A stretch of DNA of 32,000 nt from Candidatus Helarchaeota ASGARD archaeon Hel_GB_B (GTDB taxonomy: Archaea > Asgardarchaeota > Lokiarchaeia > Helarchaeales > HEL-GB-B): positions 18,981 through 50,980 of the forward strand of contig SUPR01000012.1 of the NCBI GenBank assembly GCA_005191425.1, in the 5' to 3' direction. Under the pieces are notes generated by a model. The model made no database searches, had not been told where the DNA came from, and worked only from the letters and a program-made list of their open reading frames with translations. The first letter of the stretch is position 1. Every line of letters starts with the position of its first letter. The position numbers and the translations under genes are program-made. Below are positions 10,779 to 32,000 of this stretch, piece by piece.

Positions 10779-10934
10779 ACTCTTAACAAATTATTTTAAC
10801 GAATATAAATTATTATCAAGTCTTTTAATTTTGATTTGATATCTTAATATAAAAAATTTGATTATATATGTAATTTAAATTTGGAATTAACATCTTCATT
10901 TTATTTAGAGTAAATTTAATAATAAAAAGATCAT

Positions 10935-12473: not shown

Positions 12474-12854
12474 ATGCAATATAATGAGAAAATTTTAGAC
12501 CATTTCAGAAACCCGAGAAATATCGGAGAAATTGAAGATGCAGATGTTGTAGGTGAGATGGGAAACCCTGAAGATGGTGATTTGGTTTATATTTATTTGA
12601 AAATCAATAAAGATAAAGACATAATAGAAGAAATATCATTTCAGACTTTTGGATGTGGAGCTGCAATTGCGACAAGCTCAATGGTGACAGTAATGGCTAA
12701 AGGAAAAACTTTAGATGAGGCTTTAAAGATTACAAAACAAGATGTAGCAAAAGAATTAGGGGGGCTATCTCCACAAAAAATGCATTGCTCCAATTTAGCA
12801 TCAGATGCATTACATATAGCTATTAAAAAATATCGTAAAATGCAAGAAAAGTAA
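12474..12854 (+). CDS. iscU: IscU/NifU-N Fe-S scaffold with first Cys ligand replaced by Asp
   Basis: HFRNPRN, FGCGAAIA, KMHCSNLA; GNPEDGD where GNPxCGD is canonical. Confidence 0.88.
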   Translation: MQYNEKILDHFRNPRNIGEIEDADVVGEMGNPEDGDLVYIYLKINKDKDIIEEISFQTFGCGAAIATSSMVTVMAKGKTLDEALKITKQDVAKELGGLSPQKMHCSNLASDALHIAIKKYRKMQEK

Positions 12855-13089
12855 ATTATACAGTAAATAATTTTTATTTATTAAAGGAATTATATGATTT
12901 CTTTAAAATTATTTAAGTTTACCTCTATTTCTTTTAGTATTTAAAAAAGTTTTAATAAATGCATTTAATTTCCGAAATTTTTCTAAATTGAATTATAAAA
13001 ACTCTTTTAATAAAATAAAGTGATAGATCTTAAAGAATATCTAGAAAGTAATGAAGATAATTAAATGGTAAAAGAATGGTGTGTACTAA

Positions 13090-14559: not shown

Positions 14560-14560
14560 A

Positions 14561-14959
14561 ATGGTACTATTAACATTAAATATTTCTCCTCGATCAATTA
14601 CTAATGTTAGTGATTATGCTAAATTAATTAGAAAAGTTCTAGACCTTGACATTTCTTTTAATATTATTCATCTTTCTACCTCTTCAAAATCTGTAAGTAT
14701 GATAATCGAAGTTCCAAAAGATAAAGTGAAAGCTTTAATCACAACGCTTAGGGATTATGACATAATTATAGAAAGAAAAAATCCAATAAGTATTGATGAA
14801 GAAAATTGTATTCATTGCGGTCAATGCATTTCTCTTTGTTCTACAGGCGCGTTATATTTTGACAAGGAGTATAAAGTATGTTATGACCACGAAAAATGCA
14901 TTGGATGTCTTATTTGTGTTGATTCATGTCCTCGCTCTGCAATTAAGGAAAATATTTGA
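14561..14959 (+). CDS. NIL-domain 2x[4Fe-4S] ferredoxin (MA1822-type partner)
   Basis: CIHCGQCISLC and CIGCLICVDSCP; starts 1 nt after the DUF39 stop. Confidence 0.88.
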   Translation: MVLLTLNISPRSITNVSDYAKLIRKVLDLDISFNIIHLSTSSKSVSMIIEVPKDKVKALITTLRDYDIIIERKNPISIDEENCIHCGQCISLCSTGALYFDKEYKVCYDHEKCIGCLICVDSCPRSAIKENI

Positions 14960-15128
14960 ATATATTTTTTAATATATTATTCAATTTTACAAATTTTTTA
15001 AAAATTTTCAATATGAAAAAACTCATAAATTTTAACAATCTAATTAATTCTATAACAGAACAATATTTCAAAATATTTCACTTTTAAAAAACAATATCTA
15101 ATTAAATAAAAAAATTAATGGGATACAT

Positions 15129-16250
15129 ATGTCCAGTGAATATGAATCATTAGATGGTGGAAAAGTTTACCGTTCCTTATTTAATTCAAAATCAATAATT
15201 CTAGCAGTAAATCCACGTTTCAATTTAGGGATTTTGGAAGGTATTTTTAAAGCAGGAAAAGAAATGAATACAATCATTATTTTCGAGCTAGCTCGCTCTG
15301 AGTGTGATCTTAATGGTGGATATACTGGTCTAACACCGCAAACATTTGCCAATAATGTAAGATCAGTTGCAAAAAAAGTGGGCAACCCTAATTTTATAAT
15401 TCACGGCGACCATATTACTATTAAAAAGAGGTCTGACGAAATTATCGCATCTACAAAAAAGTTGATTAAGAACCAAATCGAGAATGGTTATAAGAGTTTT
15501 GCAATTGATGCATCATTCCTGTTTAATTTAAAAGGAAAATCTACTTATGAGCAATTAGAGGACAATATTAAAGTTACTACCGAATTGGCGAATTATATTA
15601 AAGATAATGCTGGAAATATCGAATATGGACTAGAGGTAGAAGTCGGAGAAATTGGAAAAAGAGATGCAAATGGTCTGGTTTATACAACTATTGATGAAGC
15701 ACTTACTTATATTAAAGCATTAAATGAAAATGATATACACCCTAATTTTCTTGCAATAGCAAATGGCTCCACTCATGGAAATATATATGATAAAAATGGT
15801 AAACCAATTGAACAAATAACAATTGATATACCTAGAACAATTGAAATCGCAAAAGCTATTGAACCATATAATGTACGTATCGCTCAACATGGGATTACTG
15901 GTACGCCTTTAGACTTAATTCAAAAGCATTTTCCAAAGGGATTAATCGGTAAAGGAAATGTAGGTACTTATTGGCAGAATATTGTATGGAATGTCCTACA
16001 AGAAAACGAGCCAGAAATCTTCCAAGCAATCAAAAAATGGGTTCTTGATAAATATAAAGCTTCAAATCCAACAAAAAATGACGTCGAAATTTTTGGAAAA
16101 AATTCTAAATATGCTTTTAAAGAGTTCTTTAATCAATTACATTCTATAAAAGTAGAGACCATAAATAAACTGATAGACAGTGCATTTATAGAAGCCAAAA
16201 AATTTTTAGCTGCATTTGATTCTATTAATACAATAAAATTCCTAAACTAA
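15129..16250 (+). CDS. fba: Class II fructose-bisphosphate aldolase family
   Basis: HGDH, AIDAS, EVEVGEIG, AIANGSTHG, IAQHGITGT, KGNVGT. Confidence 0.88.
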   Translation: MSSEYESLDGGKVYRSLFNSKSIILAVNPRFNLGILEGIFKAGKEMNTIIIFELARSECDLNGGYTGLTPQTFANNVRSVAKKVGNPNFIIHGDHITIKKRSDEIIASTKKLIKNQIENGYKSFAIDASFLFNLKGKSTYEQLEDNIKVTTELANYIKDNAGNIEYGLEVEVGEIGKRDANGLVYTTIDEALTYIKALNENDIHPNFLAIANGSTHGNIYDKNGKPIEQITIDIPRTIEIAKAIEPYNVRIAQHGITGTPLDLIQKHFPKGLIGKGNVGTYWQNIVWNVLQENEPEIFQAIKKWVLDKYKASNPTKNDVEIFGKNSKYAFKEFFNQLHSIKVETINKLIDSAFIEAKKFLAAFDSINTIKFLN

Positions 16251-16503
16251 ATAATTATTATTTATAATTTCTTTTTATAATATAAAATAATTCATTTCAT
16301 ATTTTTTCTGCTTTTTTATCATAATTCTGTTTTTTTTATTAATTTTAATAAGATAATTTCATTAATAATCAATTTTAGTTATTATATTATTATTTTCTAC
16401 TGTTCCTTAATTTTAATCTTTCACTAAATAATTTGTTAGAAGTGAAATTAAGGGAGATTTAAATGTAAAAAGATGTAAAAATAGGTTTTATATGCTAATA
16501 AAT

Positions 16504-17748
16504 TTAAAGATTATCAATAATTGTGCTGGCATATTCAGAGCATTTAATTGGTTTTATATTGTCCATTAATCTTGCTAAATCATAAGTTACCTTTTTTTCT
16601 TTAATTGTTTTTTCAATAGATTCCTCGATAAGTTTTGCAGGTTTATCCCAATTTAAATATTTTAACATCATGACTCCCGATAAAATTAGTGATGATGGAT
16701 TAACTTTATCTTGATTTGTATATTTAGGAGCACTTCCATGGGTAGGTTCAAATAATGCAATAAAATCGCCGATATTTGCACCGGGTGCCATACCTAAACC
16801 TCCGATTTGGGCTGCAGCTGCATCCGATATATAGTCTCCATTTAAATTTGGGGCTGCGATTATGTCATATTCATCGGTACGAGTTAAAATTTGTTGAAAC
16901 ATACTATCTGCAATTCGATCCTTGATTAGAATTTTTTCGGTAGGAATTTTACCATTATATTTATCCCATAAATCGTTTTCGGTTACAATTTTATCTTTAA
17001 ATTCTTCTACAGCGACTTCATATCCCCAATCTCTAAAAGCGCCCTCAGTATATTTCATAATATTACCTTTATGCATTAAAGTTATAGATTTATAACCATA
17101 TTTTATTGCATATTTAATAGCAGCTCTGACAAGTCTTTTACTTTTAAATTCACTAATAGGTTTTATTCCAATTCCCGCATCTTGTGGGATTTTAATATCA
17201 AATTTATCTTTTAAAAATTGAATTATTTCTAAATTTTGTTTTGAATTGGATTCCCATTCAATTCCTGCATATACATCTTCAGTATTTTCGCGAAAAATTA
17301 CTATGTCCATTTTTTCAGGATTTTTGACAGGGCTTGGGACTCCATTATAATATTTAACAGGTCTTATACAAGAGTATAAATCTAACTTTTGTCTAAGGGT
17401 GACATTAAGACTTCTAAACCCCCCACCAATTGGTGTAGTTAATGGACCTTTAATTGCTACTATAAAATATTCAATTGCTTTTATTGTATCTTCAGGTAAA
17501 TAATTTCCATATATTTTAAACGCTTTTTCACCAGCAAAAATTTCAAACCAAATGATTTTTCTTTTTATACCATATGCTTTTTTAATTGCTGCATCCCAGA
17601 CCCTTTTAGATGCAGTCATTATATCCCTACCAATTCCATCGCCTTCTATATATGGTATAATTACATAATCTGGTACAATTAATTCATCATTAATAATTTG
17701 AATTTTTTCTCCTTCATCTGGAATAGTTAATTTATCAAATTTGATCAT
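16504..17748 (-). CDS. icd: NADP-dependent isocitrate dehydrogenase (E. coli type)
   Basis: [53 protein letters not shown]; HGSAPKY and TYDLAR NADP determinants. Confidence 0.96.
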
Positions 17749-17773
17749 AATTTCACCATGAACTTGACTTTTA

Positions 17774-18556
17774 TTAAAGATTGATATATTTTTTTACATC
17801 TAAAATATTGTAAATAATCTTAAAATTATATTGATCCATTGCTTTCTTATAAAAAAATCCCACATTTTTATCGATTTTTGTCAAATCATACAAAATTAAT
17901 CCAATGCCAGCAGCATCTGCCGCTAAAATATCGTGGAAATCATCACCTACAAATGCAATATCGGCTAATGAAAAATTAAAGACTTTAGAAAAATCAAGTA
18001 TGACTTTTTTTTTATCTTCTGCATTACGAACTACAAGCATTGAATCGCCTGTAGATTTAGCAGTGTGTTTTCGTTCGTATATTAAATTATTACATGCAAT
18101 ATAATCGAATTTAATAAAGTCCAACGCCGTAAGCGCGGCAATTTCTAAGCTCATAGAGCATATTCCTATTTTTATTCCTTTTTCCTTAATTTTAAGCAAT
18201 AATTCTTTTACTCCAGGTCTTAATGGTATCATTTTAGAAATTTTAGCTAAATTCTCCTTAGAAATGTTCTTGAAAGACCTAAGAATATATGGATAATATT
18301 TTGAAATATATTTTCCATATTCAGTAATAATTTCATCAATAGGTTTTTCATAATTTTTTTTACTAAATAAATTTCTTAAATGTCTGGTATATCTAAATCC
18401 ATAAAAAAATATTCTATTTAAATTAAGAATACCATAAAATGGATTAAAATTATTTTCGGACTCAAAATTTCTCCGTATTTGCCATTTCATAATAAAAGTG
18501 ATTGAATTTTCACTACTCAATGTCCCATCAAAATCAAATAAAATGCCTTTAATCAT
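17774..18556 (-). CDS. HAD-superfamily hydrolase (phosphoserine phosphatase-like)
   Basis: LFDFDGTL motif I, GICS motif II, K, and VGDDFHD motif IV. Confidence 0.85.
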
Positions 18557-18566
18557 TATTCGTTTA

Positions 18567-19370
18567 TTACTCCTCTTTTTTATTATATTTAGACTTATTC
18601 ATTGATAAAAAAAATAAAATTACTCCACCAACTCCTATTGCAATACAAATATAATTAAAGACGTAAGTCCAATTTATGTAAAAAACACTGGAACTAGAAA
18701 AAATGCTTATTTTTAAGCGGTAAGAATAATTTAAAGGGTTTCCATATTCTTTAATAATATCATAAAAAATAATCCATCCAGTATACTCGTCCCATTGAAT
18801 TATTCCCTTCATTGTATAATTGGCTTTTAATTTCTCATCATAAAATTTCCCGGTATCACAATTAATCGTTAAAATATTAAATACTTTGGTCAAATTAAAC
18901 CCTTTTGTTTTACCTAATTCGATTGCTGCTCTTGTCCAATTAAATCCTTGTTTTGAAGTCTTATTTACAGAGATAGGGAGTAAGCACCTAATATATATTA
19001 AACCATCAATTTTATATGTTACATTATAGAGATAATCTGTTCTGTTATATGCAAAATCATCATATAAATAAATGAAATCCCTATAAATCTGGCCGCTTTT
19101 TTTTGTCTGAAATTGCATATAAATATCGTTATAATGGTTTAAATCGCTATTATAGTCATTTATCCCAATTATTTTATATGTTTGTAAAGGTAAATCATTT
19201 ACGGAATTAACAGAACCTGAATACGTTTCGGATAATATGTATAAATTAGAATCATCCAAATTTACACCCCAAATTCTAAAATTTCCAGCTATATTTATTT
19301 GTATCATTCCTATAAACAAAACTATTATTAAAGAAACTAAATAAATCCGAAATTTTAACATGTATATCAT
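18567..19370 (-). CDS. Hypothetical surface protein with N-terminal signal/TM and C-terminal TM anchor
   Basis: Hydrophobic N-terminus, N-x-S/T-rich soluble region, C-terminal TM followed by a basic tail. Confidence 0.75.
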   Translation of the reverse strand: MIYMLKFRIYLVSLIIVLFIGMIQINIAGNFRIWGVNLDDSNLYILSETYSGSVNSVNDLPLQTYKIIGINDYNSDLNHYNDIYMQFQTKKSGQIYRDFIYLYDDFAYNRTDYLYNVTYKIDGLIYIRCLLPISVNKTSKQGFNWTRAAIELGKTKGFNLTKVFNILTINCDTGKFYDEKLKANYTMKGIIQWDEYTGWIIFYDIIKEYGNPLNYSYRLKISIFSSSSVFYINWTYVFNYICIAIGVGGVILFFLSMNKSKYNKKEE

Positions 19371-21471: not shown

Positions 21472-22161
21472 TTATTTTCCTCTTATTCCATAATATATTA
21501 AAAATGCCCCAACTATTCCAGATATTTGAAAAATTAGCCCGAATGAAGATATTATAATAAGAATATGAAGGTTATAAATAATTGCCCAAATATAGAATAT
21601 GTCTAACAAGGTAATACCAATAATAAAAAATTTGAATTTTTGACGGACAATTCCTGTAGTTTCATTAAATACTTTCAAAGAAATTAAAAGTTGTAATAAA
21701 TATATGGATTGGCTAAAAATGAATTGATAAGTCCCAAAAAGAATTGACCAGTGAGGTTCATAATCAATAGTAATTGAAACTCCATTTGGTATACAATAAA
21801 GTCCAAGATTAAGTATAATAAGTGTAATAGTCATTAGAATAATTTTTTTATCTTGAAAAAGCTTTTTATTTCCGAAGTGAAAAATAAAGACTCCTAACAA
21901 CAAAAATATAGATGCAAAATTTAAAATTATTATTCCAATTTTGTTTAAAATAATAATAACAAATGGGATAAGAAAAAACAGATAGAGAATTTGAATGACA
22001 CCAATAATTGAAGTACATATAAAAAAAATAATAAAAAAATGGTTAACTCTGTGATATGGATTTATTCTCCACAATGAAAAAGCAAGACTTAAAAATATAA
22101 TAATAAATAATAAGGCAAAAATTGAAATTACGATAACTCTTGAAGTAAGTAAATCAAACAT
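21472..22161 (-). CDS. Multi-pass (about 6-7 TM) membrane protein
   Basis: Alternating hydrophobic segments over 229 aa. Confidence 0.75.
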   Translation of the reverse strand: MFDLLTSRVIVISIFALLFIIIFLSLAFSLWRINPYHRVNHFFIIFFICTSIIGVIQILYLFFLIPFVIIILNKIGIIILNFASIFLLLGVFIFHFGNKKLFQDKKIILMTITLIILNLGLYCIPNGVSITIDYEPHWSILFGTYQFIFSQSIYLLQLLISLKVFNETTGIVRQKFKFFIIGITLLDIFYIWAIIYNLHILIIISSFGLIFQISGIVGAFLIYYGIRGK

Positions 22162-22520
22162 TAAAGCTAGTCCTCAAATTGTATTGATATCTATTAATAA
22201 TATTTGTAAAAATTCATTAATGAATTATTATAAATTTTTTTTCAAATTAATACCCAATTAAATTTTTTGTATTCTTTATAAAATGCAATTAAAACATATT
22301 TTAGTTATATACTAATTATATTTTAATAATATTTCAGATAGAAATTAAGGATATTTTTTTGAATTGTTAAAAATTAGCCAATTTAAATTAAAATATTTAG
22401 AATCAATTGCTAATAAATTATCAATTTCGAAAGAAAATTTATATTTTAATATATAGTCGGAAATTGATTTATAGATTTTAAGAAAAAGGATATAAATAAA
22501 TGTTTTTAAAAGAAGGTTAT

Positions 22521-22527
22521 AAAAAAA
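22521..22527 (-). terminator. Candidate oligo-T terminator of the hdr operon
   Basis: T7 run on the minus strand 3 nt after the mvhD stop, followed by further U-rich tracts. Confidence 0.35.
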
Positions 22528-22529
22528 GA

Positions 22530-22943
22530 TTATTTATTGAATGGACCTAATTCTTTAATTTGGTTAGTAAAATCTCTAATTAAATTAGCGAATTTCATTC
22601 CTTCAGCGGCAGAAACCCATTCTAATCTTATACGTTTTGGGTCGATGCCCATTAATTTAATAATTTCTTGAGTTTTCTTAAATCTCTTTTCTGCATACTC
22701 ATTTCCGCTGATATAATGGCAATCTCCAATGTGGCAGCCACAGACAAGAACGCCATCTGCACCGTTTTTAAGAGAACGTAAAATAAATGATGGTTGGACT
22801 CTACCCGAGCACATAACTCTTATAATTCTTACAGTCGGAGGATATTGAAATCTGCTTACTCCGGCTAAATCTGCGCCTGCGTATCCACACCAATTGCATA
22901 AAAATGCTACAATTCTAGGCGTAAATTCTTTATTATTATTCAT
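22530..22943 (-). CDS. mvhD: MvhD (hydrogenase/Hdr [2Fe-2S] delta subunit), all-Cys form
   Basis: FLCNWCGYAGAD, RVMCSGRV, GCHIGDCHY. Confidence 0.95.
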   Translation of the reverse strand: MNNNKEFTPRIVAFLCNWCGYAGADLAGVSRFQYPPTVRIIRVMCSGRVQPSFILRSLKNGADGVLVCGCHIGDCHYISGNEYAEKRFKKTQEIIKLMGIDPKRIRLEWVSAAEGMKFANLIRDFTNQIKELGPFNK

Positions 22944-25900
22944 TTTTTATTTCACCCAATTTGATTTCTTCATTTTCTAATAAATAAGCATCAATCATAG
23001 AATTTAATTGGTCAGTGGTAAAGTGTCGAGCTGTAATGGCATCGACTGGACATTCAACTGAACAGGTACCGCACCCTTTACACATAGCTTGAATAATTCG
23101 GGATTTTTCTTCTTGTAATATTACATTTTCGAATGTTTTTTCGACTACATATCTTTCGATGGCGCTATAAGGACAAACTTCTGCGCATCTACCGCAACCA
23201 ATACATTTTGCTTCATCAATTATCATAGTAGTGCCGACTGTAATGATTTTACCTCTTGCTAACAATTGACACGCACGAGCCGCTGCTCCGGAAGCTTGAG
23301 AGACGCATTCTTCTATTGATTTTGGCCATTGAGCTGCACCACATAAAAATACTCCATCAGTAGCAAAATCAAGTGGTCTTAATTTAACATGTGCCTCTAA
23401 AAAGAATGGAGGTATTCCGCGCATAACTGGAACTTTTAAAAATTGTGATATTTCTTCAGCATCTTCATGGGGTACCATTGGGGTTGTCAATACTAGTAAA
23501 TCTGTTTCTATAGAGGTATTACTTTGGGTAAGCATGTTGAAAAATTCAATTAATAATTTATCGCCTTTTTTAGAGACTTTTGGTAATTTATCTAATGTAT
23601 ATCTTGTAAAAAGAACATTTTGTCTAACTTCGCGATAAAATTCTTCGGAACTTTTACCTGCCATCTGAATATCTCTATAAAGAATAGTAACATCGATATC
23701 TGGATTTGATTTTTTAATTAGATAAGCATTTTTAATTGAAGTCCCGCAGCAAATTTTTGAACAATAAGTATATTCTCCATCATTTTGACGTGCACTTACA
23801 CAAAGGATCATTACTACGCTTTTAATATTACCTAGCGAATTTTCTTTTAATTTTTTCTCCAAATCCATTTGTGTTATTACATTAGGATATTTTCCATAAC
23901 CAAACAATCCATCAGGTTTTAATTCTTTACCACCAGATGCAACTATAACTGTACCAACTTCTATATGGTGGACTTGATCTCCTTGTTGGGCTTCGATTTG
24001 GAAATTACCTACATATCCGCTTACTTTACTTAAAGTAGTATTAGTTAGGACTTTGATTTTAGGATGCGTTTCAATTTTTTGTTTTAGTTCTTGTAATAAT
24101 GCTTCTGCATCGTCCATTGACGGGAATATACGGTATAAATTTTTCATAATCCCACCTAATTCGGGTTCGCGTTCGATAATAAATGCTTCAAATCCCTCAT
24201 TAGCCACACTTAAAGCTGCAGACATACCTGAGATGCCGCCTCCAATTATCAAAGCTTTTTTGATGACAGAAACTTCTCCCTGTTTTAAAGGTTTTAATTT
24301 CCTAGATTTAGCAACAGTCATACGAATTAAATCTATTGCTTTTTGTGTAGCTGCTTCAGGTTCTTGCATATGAACCCAGGAGCATTGGTCCCTTATATTT
24401 ACCAACTCGAACAAATAGGGATTTAGACCAGCTTCTCGACAAGTTAGAGCAAATAGAGGTTCATGAGTTCTAGGAGTGCATGAAGCGACAATAAATCGAT
24501 TTAAATTATATTCCTTAATTAATTCTTTGATTCGTTCTTGAGAATCGCTTGAACATGAATAAAGATTGTCTTCGCAAATTACTACATTTGGAAGTTTTTT
24601 AATATTTTCGACTACTTCTTTAACTCTGACAATTCCACCAATATTAATTCCACAGTGGCAGACCATTACACCAATTCTAGGTTCATCTTCAGGTAGTACT
24701 TCTTTTTCAGGTTCTTCAAATGTCATTTCTTTTGCTAAAGTGCCTCTAACTGGTGCAAGTAACTCTGCGACTTTTCCAGCTGCAGAACTTGCATCTGCGA
24801 CGGATTCTGGGATATCTTTTGGCGCCTGCCCGTATCCGCAAATAAAAATTCCAGGTCGATTTGTTTCAGAAGGATTTAATTCAGACAATTCTTTATAAAA
24901 GCCTCTGTGGTCAAATTCAATTCCGAGAATTTTAGCCAATTCTTGAGACCCTTCTGATGGGATTAATGCAGTAGCTAAAACAACTAAATTAGCTCGGTAT
25001 GTAATAGATTCTCCAGTTTTCATATTTTCTGCATGTATGATTAAATCTTGGGTTTCTGGGTCTTCTTCAATAAATGAAACCCGTCCATCAATATATTTAA
25101 CGCCATATTCATTTTGGGCGCGTTGAATAAATTCGTTAAAACCTTTTCCATAGGCACGAACATCACTCTTAAAAACAACACATTCAGTACTTGGTGCATG
25201 TTCTTTAGTAATCATACACTCTTTAGCAATATACATACAGCAAACGCTTGAACAATATGGAACTCCTTCCGTAGCACTTCTAGAACCAACACATGAAACA
25301 AATGCAATTCTATGGGGATGAGTTTTATCCGATGGTCTTAATATTTCACCTTGATAAGGGCCTGATGCACACATTATCCTTTCAAATTCTAATCCAGTAA
25401 CTACATTTGGATACTGATAGCCATATCTTGGAATTCTACCAGGGTCAAATTGGTCAAATCCGGTAACTGCGACTATTGCACCAACTTTAATTTTGCGATA
25501 TTCTGGTTTCATATCATAATTAATTGCCCCAATGTCGCACTGTTTTTCACAAGCTCCGCATTTATCTTTAGTGAGTTTAAGACAATTTTCTGGGTCAATT
25601 AAATAAACAGGTGGGACAGCTTGAGGAAATGGAATATATATAGCGCCTCTTGTTTGTAAGCCCATATTAAACTCGTCAGGGATTTTTAATAATTTTTGAG
25701 CTGGACATTTCATTGCACATTTACCACAACCTTTGCATTTAGTTTCATCGACATACCGTGGTTTTTTTAATACCGTCACTTCAAAATTTCCCACGTCACC
25801 ATCAACTTTAACAACTTCATGATAGGTTAATAGTTCGATATTTGGATGTCGAAAAACCTCGACCATTTTCGGTGCTAAAATACATAATGAACAATCGTTA

Positions 25901-26067
25901 GTTGGAAATGTTTTATCAAGTTGTGCCATTCTACCGCCAATAGAGGGAGATTTTTCTACAAGATAAACCCTAAAACCAGAATTAGCAAGGTCAAGTGATG
26001 CTTGCATTCCTGCAACGCCGCCACCTATGACCATTGCAGCTCCAATTCTTTCATCAAATTTACTCAT
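22936..26067 (-). CDS. hdrA: Large HdrA-like flavoprotein (two FAD-type domains, internal 'N-terminal' module), all-Cys form
   Basis: GGGVAG, TFPTNDCSLCILAPK, CKGCGKC, YCSSVCC, internal IGVMVCHCGINIG and ASCTPRTHE, second GGGISG, C-terminal 2x[4Fe-4S]. Confidence 0.93.
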   Translation of the reverse strand: MSKFDERIGAAMVIGGGVAGMQASLDLANSGFRVYLVEKSPSIGGRMAQLDKTFPTNDCSLCILAPKMVEVFRHPNIELLTYHEVVKVDGDVGNFEVTVLKKPRYVDETKCKGCGKCAMKCPAQKLLKIPDEFNMGLQTRGAIYIPFPQAVPPVYLIDPENCLKLTKDKCGACEKQCDIGAINYDMKPEYRKIKVGAIVAVTGFDQFDPGRIPRYGYQYPNVVTGLEFERIMCASGPYQGEILRPSDKTHPHRIAFVSCVGSRSATEGVPYCSSVCCMYIAKECMITKEHAPSTECVVFKSDVRAYGKGFNEFIQRAQNEYGVKYIDGRVSFIEEDPETQDLIIHAENMKTGESITYRANLVVLATALIPSEGSQELAKILGIEFDHRGFYKELSELNPSETNRPGIFICGYGQAPKDIPESVADASSAAGKVAELLAPVRGTLAKEMTFEEPEKEVLPEDEPRIGVMVCHCGINIGGIVRVKEVVENIKKLPNVVICEDNLYSCSSDSQERIKELIKEYNLNRFIVASCTPRTHEPLFALTCREAGLNPYLFELVNIRDQCSWVHMQEPEAATQKAIDLIRMTVAKSRKLKPLKQGEVSVIKKALIIGGGISGMSAALSVANEGFEAFIIEREPELGGIMKNLYRIFPSMDDAEALLQELKQKIETHPKIKVLTNTTLSKVSGYVGNFQIEAQQGDQVHHIEVGTVIVASGGKELKPDGLFGYGKYPNVITQMDLEKKLKENSLGNIKSVVMILCVSARQNDGEYTYCSKICCGTSIKNAYLIKKSNPDIDVTILYRDIQMAGKSSEEFYREVRQNVLFTRYTLDKLPKVSKKGDKLLIEFFNMLTQSNTSIETDLLVLTTPMVPHEDAEEISQFLKVPVMRGIPPFFLEAHVKLRPLDFATDGVFLCGAAQWPKSIEECVSQASGAAARACQLLARGKIITVGTTMIIDEAKCIGCGRCAEVCPYSAIERYVVEKTFENVILQEEKSRIIQAMCKGCGTCSVECPVDAITARHFTTDQLNSMIDAYLLENEEIKLGEIKNE

Positions 26068-27226
26068 TTAATAACCCCATTGCTTTTGCTACTAATGTAA
26101 TAATATCTTCAACTTCTACATTAATACGTTCTAATTCAGAACTTTTTTTCTCAGATAATGTGCAATTAAAATGGATTTGACATTTAGAGCAAGTAGTAAT
26201 TAAGCAACCCGCTGTTCTCTCGGCTTCTTTTAAGCGGTCGACCCGGATTGCTTTTGAATAATCATTACAATAATTAAAAGCACTTACTCCACAGCATTGT
26301 GAATTTTCTCTAATTCGTTCCATTTCTTTAAAAACAACTCCAACTTCTTTTAAAGCTTTTAAAATTTTTCGCGGAGCCTCATATTCACCCATATGTCTAC
26401 CAAGCCTACAAGGGTCATGATAAGTAACAGTTTTTTCAATTTTTTCTTTAAATTTCAAATTCCCTTTCTCTAATTCTTCTGCCATAAATTGTGTTATATG
26501 TTGAACTTTAAAAGGAAGTTCCCCGAATAATTCGCGATAATCTAATGCTAAAGTCCGATAATCTTCAGCACATGAAGTAATTACTAATCTAATGCCTGAT
26601 TTTTCAATATAATCAATGTTATATTTGGCCAATTTTTTAAAAGTTTCATAATCACCTTGCCAAAGAACATCGTGTCCACTGGGTTTTGCCTTGTCCAAAA
26701 GTACTAATGGTTTTTCTAAAAGATTGTCCAGTATTAATATAGCACTTTTAATTATTTTAGCAAAATCCATTCCTATATCATCAAAATAAGCGCCAAGAAT
26801 TGGAAGTACACCAGGAAAATACCCGACTTCACCTTTATCAGCAAGTCTAACCCCACTTGGGATATATTCTTCCGGAAAATTCGGGACTATACCATCCCTT
26901 GATAAAATATTTGAAACATTTGAAACAAAACAATCATGCGCTTCTTCTACTCTAAACCCTTGTTTGAATAATTCAATTCGTGCAGAACGTATAAATTCTC
27001 CGAAATTTACATTTTGGGGACACTTTTGCAGACAATAATTACAAGTTAGACACGCTAACAAATTATTCTTTTTTAGAATTTCTGTTGGATTGGGATTAGT
27101 TAGGAAATCGAAAATTATCTCACGAGGTGAAAAAGGTTGGTTGTAAGATACCGGACAACAACCTGAACATGTCCCGCATTGATAGCAGTAACTAACTTGT
27201 TTTTTTAAATCAAAACTAAGACTCAT
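26060..27226 (-). CDS. HdrD-like protein: HdrC-type ferredoxin plus CCG domains (first CCG degenerate)
   Basis: CYQCGTCSGCC, CLTCNYCLQKCP; YHDPCRLGRH, CCG, CSKC. Confidence 0.85.
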   Translation of the reverse strand: MSLSFDLKKQVSYCYQCGTCSGCCPVSYNQPFSPREIIFDFLTNPNPTEILKKNNLLACLTCNYCLQKCPQNVNFGEFIRSARIELFKQGFRVEEAHDCFVSNVSNILSRDGIVPNFPEEYIPSGVRLADKGEVGYFPGVLPILGAYFDDIGMDFAKIIKSAILILDNLLEKPLVLLDKAKPSGHDVLWQGDYETFKKLAKYNIDYIEKSGIRLVITSCAEDYRTLALDYRELFGELPFKVQHITQFMAEELEKGNLKFKEKIEKTVTYHDPCRLGRHMGEYEAPRKILKALKEVGVVFKEMERIRENSQCCGVSAFNYCNDYSKAIRVDRLKEAERTAGCLITTCSKCQIHFNCTLSEKKSSELERINVEVEDIITLVAKAMGLLNE

Positions 27227-28746
27227 TTTTCCTCGACCTTTATAATATTTTTAAGTGAGTTATAATAATAAAGGGGCGCCTTATCAATAATTTTAGAAAT
27301 GCTTTTGAAATTTCGAGTTCTTTTTCCTTTCGCAAGTTTTTCTATCAGTGGTATTCCAAAAGGTTTATCGCTAGGTATTTCCTTTACTTGAAAATAGTTT
27401 TCTTGGAGTGCCTCAGTATATAATTTTTCCCCTTTTTCGGTACGGACCACTACAGTAGACCATCCTGGACCTGAGCCTATAGAACCACAAGATATATCTG
27501 ATAATTCATTAGTAAGGTCAACGCAATAATGACATGCTGTGCGTGCTAAAGAAGTTACTTCTTTTATTGGTACTTCAACTGGTTCTTTATCTAAATTATA
27601 AACATAGAATTTCCCTTTATTAATGTCCATTTTTGATACATTATTAATAGGTGTTTTACATATTTCTTCTGAAATTTTTACCACGTTGTTATATGCAAAA
27701 GTTTCCATACAAAATATTCCAATGACATATTCAATAGAACCCCAAATTTTATTGTAAATGTTCGAAAAAACTTGATATTTTCGCATGGCTTGAATTTGAC
27801 AAGGTGTACCTACAAAAGCCAATTTTTTAATTCCAAGTTCTTGAGCAGTATTTAAAGCATCAAAAGTAGGTGCTACTGCATATTTAGTACCTGCTGTTTC
27901 TAAAAGCGCTTCAAAGTTTTTCACAATAACTGGCATTGTATTCCAGGAATTTTTTGCTCTTTTTACTACAACAGCTCCGTCAATAGATTTTTTATCAAAT
28001 AAATATTTTAAAAAAGTAGTAACCATTCCACCATCTTGGCAGACTTCTTTTATTTTTGTATCTTGTGTTTGTGCTGATTTTAATATTCTGTAAGGGCCAA
28101 ATGGCTGGCTATTTAGATCTGAATAAAGATTATATTTTTCTCCAGTAGTATATTCTTTTAGCAAATTTAAAGGTAGAAAGGTCCTTGGGCAATGGAAATT
28201 ACATAGACCACAATGAATACATTTCGATTCATCAATTATTGGTCCGTTATCTTTAATTTCAATTGCACCTACAGGGCATATAGCTTTGCAGGCACCGCAC
28301 ATACAACATAAATCATTTTCTACAATTATGTTAATTGGATCATAGACCGATCGTATACTCCATGGGCTTATTAAGTCCATTGATAAATTTTGCTCATCAT
28401 GTGTCAAAAATAACTTGACACCGTATATCATATTATCAATGTCTCTTAACTCAATCCATCTTTCATTTTGAAGGAGAATTATATTTTTGGAAACAATGAA
28501 TTCCGGAAGATCTAAAGCCTTGCTCAATTCTGGAATAGATGCCGATCCCTTTAATAAAATATATAATAATATACGATATTTATCTATTTCAGAAAGCATT
28601 AATTTATCTAATATTGAATCAACATCATCGGGATGTAATTTTTTCGCATCTTCAATATCAGTTTTATTTTCAAGAAGTGCTCTAACAAACAAACTTCCTG
28701 CATAAGCTTCAGTAGTTGCATTTAACAATTCTTTTGAGATATTCGT
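27223..28746 (-). CDS. wHTH-ferredoxin-FrhB/FdhB (F420 hydrogenase/dehydrogenase beta) fusion; start ACG 28746 or TTG 28728
   Basis: CCMCGAC and CIHCGLC ferredoxin; QDGGMVT, VGTPCQI, GIFCME, ACHYCVD and DISCGSIG FrhB motifs; N-terminal SIPELSKALDLPEFIVSKNI helix-turn-helix pattern. Confidence 0.88.
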   Translation of the reverse strand, partial: TNISKELLNATTEAYAGSLFVRALLENKTDIEDAKKLHPDDVDSILDKLMLSEIDKYRILLYILLKGSASIPELSKALDLPEFIVSKNIILLQNERWIELRDIDNMIYGVKLFLTHDEQNLSMDLISPWSIRSVYDPINIIVENDLCCMCGACKAICPVGAIEIKDNGPIIDESKCIHCGLCNFHCPRTFLPLNLLKEYTTGEKYNLYSDLNSQPFGPYRILKSAQTQDTKIKEVCQDGGMVTTFLKYLFDKKSIDGAVVVKRAKNSWNTMPVIVKNFEALLETAGTKYAVAPTFDALNTAQELGIKKLAFVGTPCQIQAMRKYQVFSNIYNKIWGSIEYVIGIFCMETFAYNNVVKISEEICKTPINNVSKMDINKGKFYVYNLDKEPVEVPIKEVTSLARTACHYCVDLTNELSDISCGSIGSGPGWSTVVVRTEKGEKLYTEALQENYFQVKEIPSDKPFGIPLIEKLAKGKRTRNFKSISKIIDKAPLYYYNSLKNIIKVEEK

Positions 28747-28789
28747 TTCTAATTACCTCCATTACATAAGAGGGTTTTTAATAATTTGT

Positions 28790-28867
28790 AATTATTTACC
28801 CTTCGCATTTAAGGGTTGTCCTCTCGAACCTTAAATTTTTATTGTTCGAGGATCATTCCAAATAATT
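28790..28867 (-). ncRNA. SECIS-like cis-element 3' of vhuD
   Basis: AUGA(28856-53) UC CUCGAAC / A-rich 14-nt loop / GUUCGAG AG GAC, then hairpin ACCCUU-AAAUGCG-AAGGGU, enclosed by AAUUAUUU/AAAUAAUU. Confidence 0.75.
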
Positions 28868-29274
28868 TAATAACGAAGCGGATTTGGGCCGACTCTTTTT
28901 AATTTTTCCATTGTATCTTTAATGGATTCAAGAAATACATTGAATTCAGCAGCACCACATTCATATAAATTTAACCTGCTTTCTCCAAGGGTTAATTCGT
29001 CTAATAGTCGCTTTACAAATTTTATTCGATTTAATGCTTTAATATTTCCATTTATAAAATCACATTCGCCAATATGTCAAGAAATGACCATAACGGCATC
29101 TGCACCCATTCTAAATGCGTGTAATATGTGATATGCATCAACTCGACCTGTACATCTTACTCTGATAATTCGGACATCTGTTGGATATTTATTTCTGGTC
29201 ACACCTGCCAAGTCAGCCGCACCATAACCTCATTTATTACATGCGAATGCTACAATCTTATATTTCTCATTCAT
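28867..29274 (-). CDS. vhuD: Selenoprotein VhuD/MvhD with two Sec (U15, U66); missing from the ORF track
   Basis: MNEKYKIVAFACNK-U-GYGAADLAG...RCTGRV...GADAVMVIS-U-HIGECDF...GPNPLRY*. TGA at 29230-29232 and 29077-29079 align with Cys in CNWC and GCHIGDC of the paralog at 22530..22943. Confidence 0.92.
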
Positions 29275-29324
29275 TTTATTTTCCTTTTTTAAATTTTTTA
29301 ATTATATTTAATTATAATTTAATA

Positions 29325-29397
29325 ACGCCTGTCGGGACGCAATTCCCTATCTCAATAATGAACTGATATTTTTTCATTATTGTCATCAAATAGGCGT
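29325..29397 (-). ncRNA. SECIS-like cis-element 3' of Sec-hdrA
   Basis: AUGA(29386-83) CAAUAAUGAA / AAAAUAUCAG / UUCAUUAUUG A GAU, then hairpin GGGA-AUUGCG-UCCC, enclosed by ACGCCU/AGGCGU. Confidence 0.78.
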
Positions 29398-31350
29398 TTA
29401 TTTTATTAAGGCGTCAATTTCATTCATTATTTGTTCATCTCTGTAATATCTAAATGTTATTGCTCTTACAGGACAACTTGCGGCACAAACTCCACAACCT
29501 TTGCACTTTATTACATCTATTTGTGCTATTCCATCATCGCCAACTTTAATTGCGCTAAACGAGCAATTTCGTTCACAAGTTCCACAACCTATACATAAAT
29601 CTTTGTCGACAATAGGGTTGATGAGTTCCAATCTGAATTTTCCTGAAGATACAAAATCAATCGCCATTGCTGCTGCAGCTCTTGCTGTTGAAACTGTATA
29701 AGGTACTGCCATTGGATTTCTACAAGCACCACCGATATAAACGCCACTTGCTTTAGTTTCGACCGGACTTAAACAAGTGTGTATCTCTTTTATAAATCCA
29801 GACGGTGATAAGTCCAAACCTAATATACTGACAATTTCTTTTGCTTTTGGATGAGGTACCATTGCAGTAGATAATACTACTAGATCAAATTCATCTTTAA
29901 TAATCCTATGACCTATAATGTCCTCGCCCCGTAAAATTAGATTTCGCGTCTCTGGATCTTCTTTAACTTCGGCAATTTTACCTTTAATGAATTTTATTTG
30001 TGGGTTTTCACCTCTAATTCTACTGTAATATTCTTCTTCGTCCTTAGAAGTCGTCCTTATATCTATATAAAAAATATAGACCTCAATATCACCATATTCT
30101 TGGACTAAAAGCTGGGCATTCTTCATGGCGACAAGACAACATACTCCACCTGAACAATAAGCATTAGTTTTTAAATCACGTGAACCAACACACTGTATCA
30201 TTGCAATTTTTTTAGGGGTCTTACCATCAGATACTCTTTTTAAATGTCCACCAGTTGGTCCAGTTGGATTAATAAGACGTTCGAGTTCAATCTGAGTTAA
30301 TACATTATAATATTTACCATATCCATAATCACCGCGTTTTGAAGCATCGTAAACTTCATACCCAACCGTAATAACAATTGCGCCAACTTCAATGTCTTCA
30401 TAAGTCGGTTTCATATCATAATCAACAGCTTCGGCTAAACAATTTTTTTGGCATTGCTTACACTTAATACATGCATCTATGTCAATATACGCTTTTTTAG
30501 GTACTGCATTAGGATGAATTATATTAATAGCTTTTCTAGTACCAAGTCCATAATTGAATTCATTAGGTACCAAAACCGGACATATTTCCATACACCTTCC
30601 ACAACCAGTACATTTTTCCCAATCGACATATGTTGGTTTATGTTCAATAGTTACTTTATATTGACCCGCACTTCCACTGATATTTTTTATTTCACAATAG
30701 GTACGTAATTCGATATTTGGATGTTTTGAAGCCTCGACCATTTTCGGTGCTAAAATTCATATAGCGCAATCATCAGTCGGAAATGTCCGGTCTAATTGTG
30801 CCATCTTTCCGCCGATACTAGGTAAAGAATCCAACAAATAAGTTTTAAAGCCAGCATTCGCAGTAGCTAATGCTGCACTAATTCCTGCAATTCCTGCACC
30901 AATAATTAAGACTTCTTTTATTACTTCCATCTCTTTTAATGGGACATCATCTAATATAGAAGCACGTTCAACACCAGCTTCAATCAATGCTTTTGCTTTC
31001 TCAGTTGCTTCTTCATTTGTAGATGGATTAACAAAAGATACTTGCTCTCTCAGATTCACCATTTGAAAATAATATTGGCTTAGACCTGCTGATTCTAATA
31101 ATGCCCGATATGTAGGTTCGTGTATTTTTGGTGTGCAAGCACCAACAACAACTCTATTTAAGTTATGGTTAATAATATCTTCTGCAATCATTTGTTGCCC
31201 AGGCTCTGAGCACATAAAAGAAAAACTCTTGGATAAGACGACATTTGGTAGTGTTTTTGCGTATTCTGCAACTGCCTCAACATCTACTACACCGCCGATA
31301 TTAACGCCTCATGCACAAACGTAAACTCCAATGCGAATTTCTTCTGACAC
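29398..31350 (-). CDS. hdrA: Selenoprotein HdrA (650 aa) with two Sec (U14, U198); split into two ORFs by the track
   Basis: GTG start with GGTG SD. IGVYVCA-U-GVNIGG (TGA 31309-31311) and FPTDDCAI-U-ILAPKMVE (TGA 30757-30759) are in one frame. They align with CHCG and DCSLCILAPK of the Cys paralog. Canonical HdrA length and domain order. Confidence 0.92.
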
Positions 31351-31388
31351 ATTAAACACCTTTTTTTATTTTTCACCTCTTAATTATT

Positions 31389-31547
31389 TTATTCAATAAG
31401 AGCACGCTTAACTTGAACTTTTATTTTATTTTTATCATAATCGTATATTGGAGCAATCTTTTGTATTAATTTTGATATTTTTCCGCCAGATAATTCTAAC
31501 TCTTCCATAATTTCTTTTGCAAATTCTTTTAATTCATTTTTGTCCAT
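31389..31547 (-). CDS. 52-aa small protein heading the hdr operon (MDKNELKEFAKEIMEELELSGGKISKLIQKIAPIYDYDKNKIKVQVKRALIE)
   Basis: ATG with GGAG SD, charged helical composition, same strand and 38 nt from the hdrA start; below the track's size cut-off. Confidence 0.6.
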   Translation of the reverse strand: MDKNELKEFAKEIMEELELSGGKISKLIQKIAPIYDYDKNKIKVQVKRALIE

Positions 31548-31852
31548 TTTAATTACTCCATAAATAATTCAATTTGAAGTATGAAAATTTTGTTTTAAAT
31601 TTTTTGAAAACTCTAATTTTTTAATAAAATTAATAAACTAACATTTTTTATAACAGATTTAAATTAAACCCCGAAACCTTAAAATTAATAAAAATTTTTA
31701 AAAATTATTGAAAGAAAATCGCTAATAACAAATTATCAATTCATAATTTATCTTTATATTCCCTAGAATTTTTGTTCTAAAAAATGAGGAAGAATTTTTT
31801 TATTTTAAAAAATTAAGAAATATTTGATACATTTGAAAGGTTGAAATCACAA

Positions 31853-32000
31853 ATGGTCGAAGATATAAATTTATTAATCGAAAAATACGAAGGTATTTTA
31901 CAATCAGAACCCGATAATAAAGATATTTTAATGAAATTAGGTATCTGTTATACTTCCATTAATAATTTTGATAAAGCAATCGAAATTTATAATAAAATTC
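31853..32000 (+). CDS. TPR-repeat protein, 5' part (runs off the window)
   Basis: MVEDINLLIEKYEGILQSEPDNKDILMKLGICYTSINNFDKAIEIYNKI fits the TPR pattern (P.N...L..LG..Y....F.KAI..Y). Confidence 0.7.
   Translation, partial: MVEDINLLIEKYEGILQSEPDNKDILMKLGICYTSINNFDKAIEIYNKI

What the first reader, a model, noticed from the sequence alone, without database searches (positions are those of the whole stretch)
22530..31547. One operon carrying both Sec and Cys versions of HdrA and MvhD around an F420-binding FrhB module, without MvhAG or HdrB
Seen: order is sORF, hdrA(2 Sec), SECIS, vhuD(2 Sec), SECIS, wHTH-Fd-frhB, hdrD-like, large hdrA(Cys), mvhD(Cys), all on one strand. The Cys genes overlap by 4-8 nt, while the only sizeable spacers are those holding the SECIS-like elements. 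Established: HdrA-MvhD is the flavin-bifurcation core, FrhB/FdhB binds F420, and Methanococcales keep Sec and Cys isoforms in separate, Se-regulated loci. Inference: an F420H2-linked bifurcating/confurcating complex with two HdrA types. The downstream Cys pair may work as a built-in backup when UGA14 of the first gene terminates under Se limitation.
Basis: partly seen in the sequence, partly recalled or inferred. Interest (0 to 1): 0.75.

Follow-up and report, generated by a model that had tools for sequence, protein, structure and literature searches.

The report
Asgard F420-linked double-HdrA selenoprotein operon
An Asgard (Helarchaeales-type) archaeon has a conserved seven-gene cluster joining a selenocysteine HdrA-MvhD pair and an F420-binding module to a second, cysteine-only fused HdrA-MvhD pair; it looks like one F420-coupled electron-bifurcating redox system, not a selenium-starvation backup.

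Summary
The seven genes lie on the minus strand, and four in-frame TGA codons sit at conserved Cys positions. A SECIS-like element lies behind hdrA and another behind vhuD. The four distal genes overlap by 4-8 nt.

The source is an Asgard archaeon of the Helarchaeales type, not a Methanococcales. Its genome holds an MCR-like gene, F420 biosynthesis genes and SepSecS.

The core triad is hdrA(Sec)-vhuD(Sec)-wHTH/Fd/FrhB. It is present at every FrhB-fusion locus examined across the phylum (about 44), and it always carries Sec. The full cluster adds an HdrD-like gene, a 1043-aa fused 'type II' HdrA and a Cys MvhD. It recurs in at least 8 genomes of three or four families.

The large HdrA is not a Cys isoform of the small one. 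It is an old, separate paralog built as an asymmetric pseudo-dimer. The 'built-in backup' idea is therefore not supported.

An F420-coupled HdrA/MvhD bifurcating or confurcating system is the best reading. Solved precedents exist: Elp-Hdr, Fdh-Hdr and F420-reductase modules. Whether both HdrA modules form one complex, and what the disulfide substrate is, remains open. The HdrD-like protein keeps only one intact CCG motif.

I rate this a new variant of known kinds, of moderate interest. The scan had already noted the three-armed SECIS on another contig of this genome.

The parts
31389..31547 (-). sORF, 52 aa, helical, no family. Conserved upstream of hdrA in L011, L012 and L013 only.
   Evidence: 78-82% identity in L011 and L012
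29398..31359 (-). Type I five-domain HdrA with two Sec (U17 and U201 counted from GTG 31359; U14 and U198 from the likelier GTG 31350). TGA codons at 31311-31309 and 30759-30757.
   Evidence: (PDB HdrA E 1e-211 over residues 8-652; U201 aligns to residue 197)
29325..29396 (-). SECIS-like element of hdrA. It has an outer helix, ATGA (29386-29383), a 9-bp stem, a 12-nt A-rich loop and then AG/GA, plus an accessory hairpin (29347-29334).
28867..29274 (-). VhuD/MvhD-family protein, 135 aa, two Sec (U15 and U66). TGA codons at 29232-29230 and 29079-29077.
28791..28866 (-). SECIS-like element of vhuD. ATGA at 28856-28853, 9-bp stem, 14-nt loop, GA, accessory hairpin at 28815-28799 and a closing helix.
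27223..28728 (-). Fusion protein, 501 aa: an N-terminal wHTH-like domain (about residues 40-100), a 2x[4Fe-4S] ferredoxin domain (about 130-190) and an FrhB/FdhB-type F420-oxidoreductase core (208-480).
   Evidence: (PRK09325 287 bits, cut-off 269)
26060..27226 (-). HdrD-like protein, 388 aa: an HdrC-type 2x[4Fe-4S] domain plus an HdrB-type part. Only the C-terminal CCG motif keeps its cysteines.
22936..26067 (-). Type II (fused) HdrA, 1043 aa, all Cys. Half 1 is a TrxR-FAD domain with the inserted ferredoxin domain and the Cys197-equivalent, but no N-terminal domain. Half 2 is the N-terminal FeS domain, a TrxR-FAD domain lacking the Cys197 motif and the inserted Fd, and the C-terminal ferredoxin domain.
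22530..22943 (-). MvhD, 137 aa, Cys at both positions that are Sec in VhuD.
22521..22527 (-). T7 run 3 nt after the mvhD stop codon, a likely archaeal oligo-T terminator. It is the longest T run in the region, and no internal spacer has T5+.

Best explanation
This is a conserved Asgard operon for a soluble, F420-coupled HdrA-type flavin-based electron-bifurcating (or, in reverse, confurcating) redox system built from two paralogous HdrA-MvhD modules.

Module 1 is hdrA(Sec)-vhuD(Sec)-wHTH/Fd/FrhB. The FrhB core exchanges a hydride with F420/F420H2 at its FAD. Electrons pass through its [4Fe-4S] clusters and the fused ferredoxin domain to the [2Fe-2S] protein VhuD, and on to the FAD of the type I HdrA. 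There they are split between, or gathered from, ferredoxin and a high-potential branch.

Module 2 is HdrD-like + fused type II HdrA + MvhD(Cys). It supplies the thiol/disulfide site, a single intact non-cubane CCG cluster, and an asymmetric pseudo-dimeric HdrA with two further flavins.

In this MCR-bearing Helarchaeales-type organism the flow may run towards F420 reduction (thiols + reduced ferredoxin -> F420H2).

The Sec-versus-Cys difference reflects the history of the two paralog lineages, not a selenium back-up. The FrhB-linked pair is a selenoprotein pair at every locus sampled.

Shown here: gene content, Sec positions, SECIS elements, domain architectures, conservation and F420 biosynthesis genes. 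Inferred: co-transcription, electron path, physical assembly, direction and substrate.
For: Families and domains:
- The FrhB core is above the NCBIfam cut-off. Residues 128-482 match the solved ferredoxin+F420-reductase modules 8RIU_B and 8RJA_E (PMC11493965).
- The genome encodes CofH (494 bits, over cut-off), CofE and CofD. It also has an MCR-alpha-like gene and SepSecS.

Operon layout:
- The four distal genes overlap by 4-8 nt.
- No internal spacer has a T5+ run.
- A T7 run follows mvhD directly.
- No terminator-like site lies on the coding strand.

Conservation:
- The triad is present at all examined FrhB-fusion loci.
- The full cluster occurs in the window, L011, L012, L018, L014/L026, L025, L054 and L069.
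- A related hdrA(Sec)+type II HdrA+HdrD-like+MvhD cluster lies on C122 of the same genome.

Sequence features:
- All three TrxR domains keep the K409/E356 equivalents, read from the alignments. The residues are named in PMC12054007.
- The type II HdrA shows the N-domain/Cys197 complementarity described for ANME fused HdrAs (PMC9012536).

Solved precedents for FdhB-like + MvhD + HdrA: Elp-Hdr and Fdh-Hdr (PMC12350162).
Against: - No transcript, protein or activity data exist. No RNA run could be listed.
- The spacers holding the SECIS elements are AT-rich, and archaeal internal promoters cannot be excluded by sequence.
- Most Asgard lineages have the triad without module 2. Module-2-like clusters also exist without FrhB (C122). 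The two modules can therefore work apart.
- The HdrD-like protein of this clade has lost the cysteines of its first CCG motif. Canonical two-cluster heterodisulfide chemistry is therefore doubtful and the substrate is unknown.
- No FdhA/ElpA-like subunit is present.
- tRNA-Sec was not found above threshold in this 94%-complete MAG.
Confidence: 0.55

Rival explanations
1. Two independent enzymes are merely co-located. The triad HdrA(Sec)-VhuD(Sec)-FrhB alone would be a reduced-ferredoxin:F420 oxidoreductase feeding the H4MPT Wood-Ljungdahl pathway, as proposed for the hdrA-mvhD-frhB clusters of Korarchaeia. HdrD-like/type II HdrA/MvhD would be a separate disulfide-linked bifurcating enzyme with another donor.
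For: - The triad stands alone at about 36 of about 44 loci, and in families f21 and f10 that have no type II HdrA at all.
- Module-2-like genes occur without FrhB on C122.
- The Korarchaeia proposal is in PMC10667645.
Against: - The two modules are adjacent, and the frhB/hdrD-like genes overlap by 4 nt here.
- The same order recurs in at least 8 genomes of three or four families, including distant ones.
- Module 2 has an MvhD but no electron-input module of its own.
Confidence: 0.3
2. One reading: the downstream Cys HdrA-MvhD pair is a built-in substitute. It would take over when translation of the Sec genes stops at UGA under selenium limitation.
For: Sec and Cys members of the same two families lie in one cluster. 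Methanococcales are known to keep Cys isoenzymes for Se-poor conditions (established knowledge).
Against: - The large HdrA is a 1043-aa fused type II protein, 42% identical, with a different domain set. It falls in clades separate from the Sec HdrA.
- Most lineages have the Sec triad without any adjacent Cys pair.
- HdrA positions 17 and 201 and VhuD position 15 are TGA at every locus sampled.
- Canonical Cys-type small HdrAs lie elsewhere in this genome (C68, C98, C107).
Confidence: 0.05
3. This is not a single operon. The SECIS-bearing spacers carry internal promoters, so sORF-hdrA, vhuD and frhB-to-mvhD are separate transcription units.
For: The spacers of 123 and 138 nt are AT-rich and contain TATA-like strings. 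Each Sec gene has its own SECIS, so Sec decoding does not need a shared mRNA.
Against: - The spacers have no oligo-T run.
- Shine-Dalgarno-like motifs precede vhuD and frhB, which is typical of internal cistrons.
- In family f3 the hdrA-vhuD spacer is only 12-21 nt and one SECIS serves both genes, which requires a common mRNA (PMC4989117).
Confidence: 0.15

Closest known systems
Lokiarchaeota/Asgard HdrA-VhuD(FrhD) selenoprotein gene pairs with lokiSECIS (Mariotti et al. 2016, PMC4989117; Asgard selenoproteome 2024, PMC11227280)
   Same: Multi-Sec HdrA followed on the same strand by a two-Sec VhuD. The UGA codons sit at conserved Cys positions. The SECIS has a eukaryote-like AUGA...GA/AA core with a 9-bp stem and an A-rich loop. 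hdrA ends in UAA.
   Different: Those papers describe very short hdrA-vhuD spacers and one shared SECIS. Here, and in several non-f3 families, a 95-210-nt spacer carries a second SECIS for hdrA. The papers I could read do not describe the linkage to FrhB, HdrD-like, type II HdrA and a Cys MvhD.
ElpABC-HdrABC of Methanothermobacter marburgensis and FdhAB-MvhD-HdrABC of Methanospirillum hungatei (PMC12350162)
   Same: [quoted passage not shown]
   Different: There is no ElpA/FdhA-like subunit. The ferredoxin domain is N-terminal and preceded by a wHTH. An HdrD-like fusion with one intact CCG motif replaces HdrB+HdrC. A second, fused HdrA and a second MvhD are present. The organism is an Asgard archaeon.
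Type II (fused) and tandem HdrA clusters with FdhB/FrhB in ANME and methanogens (Chadwick et al. 2022, PMC9012536; PMC12054007)
   Same: An HdrA of about 1000 aa with two TrxR domains. The N-terminal FeS domain, the Cys197 ligand and the ferredoxin domains are distributed in a complementary way between the halves. It neighbours MvhD and an F420-binding subunit.
   Different: Here the half order is reversed: the Cys197-bearing half comes first. There is no molybdopterin-oxidoreductase gene. An additional full-length Sec-containing type I HdrA-VhuD pair sits in the same cluster.
hdrA-mvhD-frhB clusters of Korarchaeia, proposed as a Fd(red):F420 oxidoreductase (PMC10667645)
   Same: The same three families are co-located, in an organism without canonical methanogenesis.
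   Different: In Asgard the pair is selenoprotein-encoding, FrhB carries wHTH and ferredoxin domains, and in this clade a disulfide-reductase-like module is appended.
F420-reductase plug-in subunits of Ca. Ethanoperedens CODH and Fwd (PDB 8RIU, 8RJA; PMC11493965)
   Same: An N-terminal 2x[4Fe-4S] ferredoxin domain plus an FrhB-like FAD/[4Fe-4S] core (E 2e-52 and 5e-50). The source is also an alkane-oxidising archaeon.
   Different: The partner enzymes differ (CODH/Fwd versus HdrA/MvhD). Those subunits have no wHTH domain.
Sec/Cys isoenzyme sets of Methanococcus (vhu/vhc, fru/frc, hdrA)
   Same: Sec and Cys members of the same families occur in one genome.
   Different: There the isoforms are isofunctional, share one architecture and lie in separate Se-regulated loci. 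Here the Cys proteins are architecturally different paralogs co-conserved with the Sec ones.

Membership tests
Asgard HdrA-VhuD selenoprotein pair (lokiSECIS type) | In-frame UGA at positions that are conserved Cys in homologs | tested here: met
   HdrA 17 and 201 and VhuD 15 and 66 align to Cys. HdrA 201 aligns to residue 197 of the solved Sec HdrA.
Asgard HdrA-VhuD selenoprotein pair (lokiSECIS type) | [quoted passage not shown] | tested here: met
Asgard HdrA-VhuD selenoprotein pair (lokiSECIS type) | Very short intergenic spacer and a single SECIS shared by both genes | tested here: not met
   The spacer is 123 nt and has its own AUGA-stem-loop element. The f3-family loci do show the 12-21-nt spacer and one SECIS.
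Asgard HdrA-VhuD selenoprotein pair (lokiSECIS type) | AUGA...GA core, 9-bp stem and A-rich apical loop just after the stop codon | tested here: met
   vhuD element: AUGA/GA with 8 of 9 pairs. hdrA element: 9 of 9 pairs followed by AG, or GA with a 1-nt bulge.
Asgard HdrA-VhuD selenoprotein pair (lokiSECIS type) | Sec machinery in the genome | tested here: inconclusive
   SepSecS scores 380 bits. tRNA-Sec was not found above threshold. The MAG is 94% complete.
Type I five-domain HdrA | N-terminal FeS domain, TrxR-FAD domain, inserted ferredoxin domain and C-terminal ferredoxin domain, aligned end to end with solved HdrA | tested here: met
   (residues 8-652 against 4-650 of 9sfi_A, E 2e-211)
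Type II (fused) HdrA | Two TrxR-FAD domains in one chain, with complementary loss of the N-domain/Cys197 ligand and the ferredoxin domains | tested here: met
   The definitions come from PMC12054007 and PMC9012536.
FrhB/FdhB F420-dependent oxidoreductase subunit | FrhB_FdhB_N and _C domains; score above the curated cut-off | tested here: met
   E 3e-21 and 5e-45; PRK09325 287 bits > 269, but TIGR03289 254 < 331.5
FrhB/FdhB F420-dependent oxidoreductase subunit | The organism makes F420 | tested here: met
   CofH 494 bits (over cut-off), CofE 245 bits, CofD 155 bits
FrhB/FdhB F420-dependent oxidoreductase subunit | F420(H2) turnover | not testable with these tools
   Needs an enzyme assay.
HdrD / HdrB heterodisulfide-reductase catalytic unit | Two CCG motifs binding two non-cubane [4Fe-4S] clusters | tested here: not met
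   the first motif's Cys are replaced (YFPGV, KPSG) in the window, L011 and L012, but kept in L014 and the C122 paralog. Pfam finds one CCG stretch.
HdrD / HdrB heterodisulfide-reductase catalytic unit | HdrC-type 2x[4Fe-4S] domain | tested here: met
   (HdrC chains, E 7e-14)
F420H2-dependent Hdr complexes (Elp-Hdr, Fdh-Hdr) | FdhB-like, MvhD-like and HdrA subunits encoded together | tested here: met
F420H2-dependent Hdr complexes (Elp-Hdr, Fdh-Hdr) | FdhA/ElpA-like subunit and separate HdrB and HdrC | tested here: not met
   None is in the cluster. HdrB and HdrC are on C118.
F420H2-dependent Hdr complexes (Elp-Hdr, Fdh-Hdr) | Physical complex of the subunits | not testable with these tools
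   Needs purification or a structure.
Sec/Cys isoenzyme back-up (Methanococcus type) | The Cys protein is an isofunctional homolog of the same architecture | tested here: not met

The most novel reading that the evidence does not exclude
The two HdrA modules form one asymmetric supercomplex peculiar to Asgard archaea. An F420 module would be wired through a selenium-ligated FeS relay to a type I HdrA dimer. In that relay both HdrA Sec residues ligate the same inter-subunit [4Fe-4S] cluster, and the VhuD Sec residues sit in the [2Fe-2S] site. The dimer would be electronically coupled to a fused type II HdrA and to a single-cluster CCG disulfide reductase. This would give three or more flavin sites that couple F420, ferredoxin and a still unknown thiol/disulfide. 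It would be the missing F420-linked electron hub of Helarchaeales, which were reported to lack F420-dependent oxidoreductases.
Probability: 0.25. Interest if true: 0.7.

Novelty: new variant of a known kind. Interest (0 to 1): 0.45.

Why it matters
HdrA-type bifurcation is central to the energy metabolism of methanogens and alkane oxidisers, but its role in Asgard archaea, the closest prokaryotic relatives of eukaryotes, is unresolved.

This cluster gives a concrete, conserved candidate for coupling F420, ferredoxin and a thiol/disulfide in these organisms. It also supplies an F420 link for Helarchaeales, which were described as lacking F420-dependent oxidoreductases (PMC6478937).

The FrhB-linked HdrA-VhuD lineage is an obligate multi-Sec selenoprotein pair whose Sec residues sit at FeS-ligand positions. 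Sec and Cys paralogs are also co-expressed by design rather than alternated.

For annotation, standard gene callers split or drop both Sec genes, so this system is invisible in most Asgard metabolic reconstructions.

Tried and rejected
- Complex prediction with FrhB(125-501) + MvhD(Cys) gave 'no answer' (score 0.00). This is no evidence either way.
- Sequencing-run searches listed no RNA holder. The listed DNA holders are hydrothermal-vent and marine-sediment metagenomes.
- Rfam found no match to any SECIS family in 22000-32000, even at E<=10.
- aragorn found no tRNA-Sec, and the best RF01852 hit (33 bits) is below threshold.
- The sigma-70 promoter scan gave no more hits than shuffles and does not apply to archaea.
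- A covariance model of the SECIS was not built. MAFFT put the 3' stem arms of the two element types one column out of register. I scored the stems with a script and a genomic control instead.
- Methanococcales origin was rejected. The best homologs and all syntenic loci are Asgard, and the SECIS is of the AUGA...GA kind.
- I did not predict structures for the wHTH or the type II HdrA.

Full report
**What is there**

Seven co-oriented genes lie on the minus strand between 31547 and 22530.
- A 52-aa sORF comes first.
- hdrA is open only if the TGA codons at 31311-31309 and 30759-30757 are read through.
- vhuD needs the same at 29232-29230 and 29079-29077.
- Then follow a 501-aa fusion protein, a 388-aa HdrD-like protein, a 1043-aa HdrA and a 137-aa MvhD.

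Pfam and NCBIfam confirm each family. The small HdrA aligns end to end with solved HdrA chains (E 2e-211). Its second TGA falls on residue 197 of a solved selenoprotein HdrA, the canonical Sec/Cys position. The first TGA lies in the N-terminal VCxCG motif. The two VhuD TGA codons align to Cys19 and Cys70 of the MvhD encoded six kilobases downstream. The gaps are 29, 123, 138, -4, -8 and -8 nt.

**Whose genome**

GC content is about 28%. The closest homologs of the FrhB fusion are named Candidatus Helarchaeota, Lokiarchaeota or Promethearchaeota. The 3.5-Mb MAG is 94% complete. It carries:
- an MCR-alpha-like gene;
- CofH above cut-off, CofE and CofD;
- SepSecS at 380 bits;
- NiFe-hydrogenase large subunits elsewhere.

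tRNA-Sec was not detected above threshold. This is an Asgard archaeon of the alkane-oxidiser type, not a Methanococcales.

**The SECIS elements**

Both large spacers fold into the same three-part structure: an outer helix closed next to the stop codon, an ATGA + 9-bp stem + A-rich loop + GA/AG arm, and a short accessory hairpin. This is the eukaryote-like lokiSECIS of Mariotti et al. (PMC4989117).

That paper and the 2024 Asgard selenoproteome paper (PMC11227280) describe very short hdrA-vhuD spacers and one shared SECIS. I find that arrangement in family f3, with 12-21-nt spacers. In this order, and in families f21, f10 and f18, the hdrA-vhuD spacer is 95-210 nt. There it holds its own AUGA element with covarying stems. 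Only 0.65% of 3222 random ATGA sites in the genome reach 8 of 9 pairs plus GA/AA.

The other Sec hdrA genes of this genome (C41, C122, C167) also have their own element.

**The 'Cys versions' are different proteins**

The 1043-aa HdrA is a fused, type II HdrA in the sense of PMC12054007.
- Residues 1-440 are a TrxR-FAD domain with the inserted ferredoxin domain and the Cys197-equivalent (DCSLC). This half has no N-terminal FeS domain.
- Residues 460-1043 have the N-terminal domain (VCHCG) and the C-terminal ferredoxin domain. This half lacks the Cys197 motif and the inserted ferredoxin domain.

This is the complementarity that Chadwick et al. described for fused and tandem HdrAs of ANME, interpreted there as a built-in heterodimer (PMC9012536). 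Here the halves are in the opposite order.

Each half is 33-42% identical to the Sec HdrA. In a maximum-likelihood tree the groups separate as follows:
- the FrhB-linked Sec HdrAs of six Asgard loci form one clade (support 100/99);
- the second halves of type II HdrAs form another (99/99);
- the first halves group apart;
- the genome's Cys-type small HdrAs (C68, C98, C107) form their own clade.

The genome holds at least eight small and six type II HdrA genes.

**Conservation**

The FrhB fusion occurs in 86 of 301 genomes of the phylum at E<=1e-60. At every locus with enough upstream sequence (about 44 distinct loci) it is preceded by hdrA and vhuD.
- HdrA positions 17 and 201 are TGA in 28 of 28 loci.
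- VhuD position 15 is TGA in all loci.
- VhuD position 66 is Sec or Cys.
- Some lineages add Sec at HdrA position 75.

The extended cluster (HdrD-like, type II HdrA, Cys MvhD downstream of frhB) is found in eight places: the window, L011, L012, L018, L014/L026, L025, L054 and L069. These belong to this order and to families f18 and f3 (genus g5).
- The f18 loci carry extra hdrC and hdrB genes.
- The f3 loci carry an extra FrhB paralog.
- Families f21 and f10 have the triad but no type II HdrA at all.

The Sec triad is thus the stable core, and the Cys module is an add-on that has been kept next to it in several lineages. This pattern, the architecture and the tree argue against a selenium back-up. 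They favour functional coupling or at least co-regulation.

**The other parts**

The FrhB core scores above the PRK09325 cut-off and matches solved FrhB at 1e-59. Residues 128-482 match the ferredoxin+F420-reductase plug-in subunits of the Ethanoperedens CODH and Fwd complexes (PMC11493965). The N-terminal 125 residues hit wHTH families in 6 of 20 orthologs (HTH_5 at 28 bits in a 75%-identical ortholog). This copy itself is not significant.

The HdrD-like protein has an HdrC-type dicluster domain. Its first CCG motif has lost its cysteines in the window, L011 and L012. The f18 ortholog and the C122 paralog keep them. A single non-cubane cluster remains, as I recall for DsrK-type proteins (from memory). 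Canonical CoM-S-S-CoB chemistry cannot be assumed.

The sORF is conserved only in L011, L012 and L013 and has no family.

**Mechanism**

[quoted passage not shown] For Korarchaeia the same three genes were proposed to form a ferredoxin:F420 oxidoreductase (PMC10667645).

All three TrxR domains here keep the Lys and Glu equivalents named as essential for bifurcation. I therefore read the cluster as an F420-coupled HdrA/MvhD bifurcating or confurcating system. The HdrD-like protein would be the thiol/disulfide site.

In an MCR-bearing alkane oxidiser the confurcating direction, towards F420H2, is plausible. This follows the ANME models cited in PMC9012536. The steps from gene content to electron path, assembly, direction and substrate are inferences.

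**Operon status**

No internal spacer has a T5+ run. The longest T run (T7) starts 3 nt after the mvhD stop. No terminator-like hairpin lies on the coding strand. SD-like motifs precede vhuD and frhB. This fits one transcript but does not prove it, and no RNA data set could be found.

**Verdict**

The F420-linked two-HdrA reading is plausible and strengthened by synteny. The back-up idea is not supported.

Every component belongs to a known kind. The combination, the second SECIS and the degenerate HdrD-like protein make this a new variant. The papers I could search do not describe it as a unit.

Noticed in passing
window 29325-29396 and 28791-28866 (minus strand); also L011-L045 spacers: Every SECIS in this gene family is followed by a short accessory hairpin (4-6 bp, loop around xxGCAA/AAGCGR) and closed by an outer helix next to the stop codon. 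This gives a three-way junction and is conserved from Helarchaeales to families f3, f10, f18 and f21. The SECIS papers I read do not describe it. The scan noted it before on another contig (e1-5392994).
   Followed up: partly
window 28756-28773 (minus strand): A small hairpin (CCTC...GGAGG) pairs the Shine-Dalgarno sequence of frhB with an upstream anti-SD. The same feature is present in L011, L012 and C41, which suggests translational control of frhB.
   Followed up: no
G000 contig C41 (L050: 3790-7536): A second hdrA(Sec)-vhuD(Sec)-frhB triad in the same MAG, 84%, 75% and 64% identical, cut off by the contig end. Its divergence equals that of other genera, so it may be an old paralog or a binning contaminant (contamination 4.9%).
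   Followed up: partly
G000 contig C122 (L047: 6659-19734): The cluster is hdrA(2 Sec, own SECIS, no vhuD) - type II HdrA - HdrD-like (both CCG motifs intact) - type II HdrA - type II HdrA - MvhD(Cys). It is a second case of Sec and Cys HdrA paralogs in one cluster, this time without FrhB.
   Followed up: partly
G000 contig C118 (L049: about 2690-18841): A run of type II HdrA genes (one fused to MvhD, 1153 aa), MvhD copies and split HdrA-like genes, followed by separate hdrC and hdrB. The genome has at least 14 HdrA-family genes, an expansion like that reported for ANME-1.
   Followed up: no
window 26060-27226; L011, L012 versus L014, L047: The HdrD-like protein of the Helarchaeales-type clade has lost all cysteines of its first CCG motif. 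The Borrarchaeum-type ortholog and the C122 paralog keep them.
   Followed up: yes
L013, L016, L054, L069 (hdrA): In some lineages the FrhB-linked HdrA has a third Sec at position 75 (CTPK motif of the N-terminal domain), and up to four TGA codons in genus g5. All known Sec positions cluster on the N-terminal FeS site.
   Followed up: partly
G000 C98:6126-6953 and C68:5365-6108: Weaker SepSecS-family hits (66-73 bits) lie about 3 kb from the two Cys-type small hdrA genes. They may be SepCysS-like genes.
   Followed up: no
window 21472-22161 (minus strand): A 229-aa ORF without any Pfam family lies 368 nt downstream of mvhD, beyond the T7 run. It is conserved at the same place in L011 but not in L012.
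   Followed up: no
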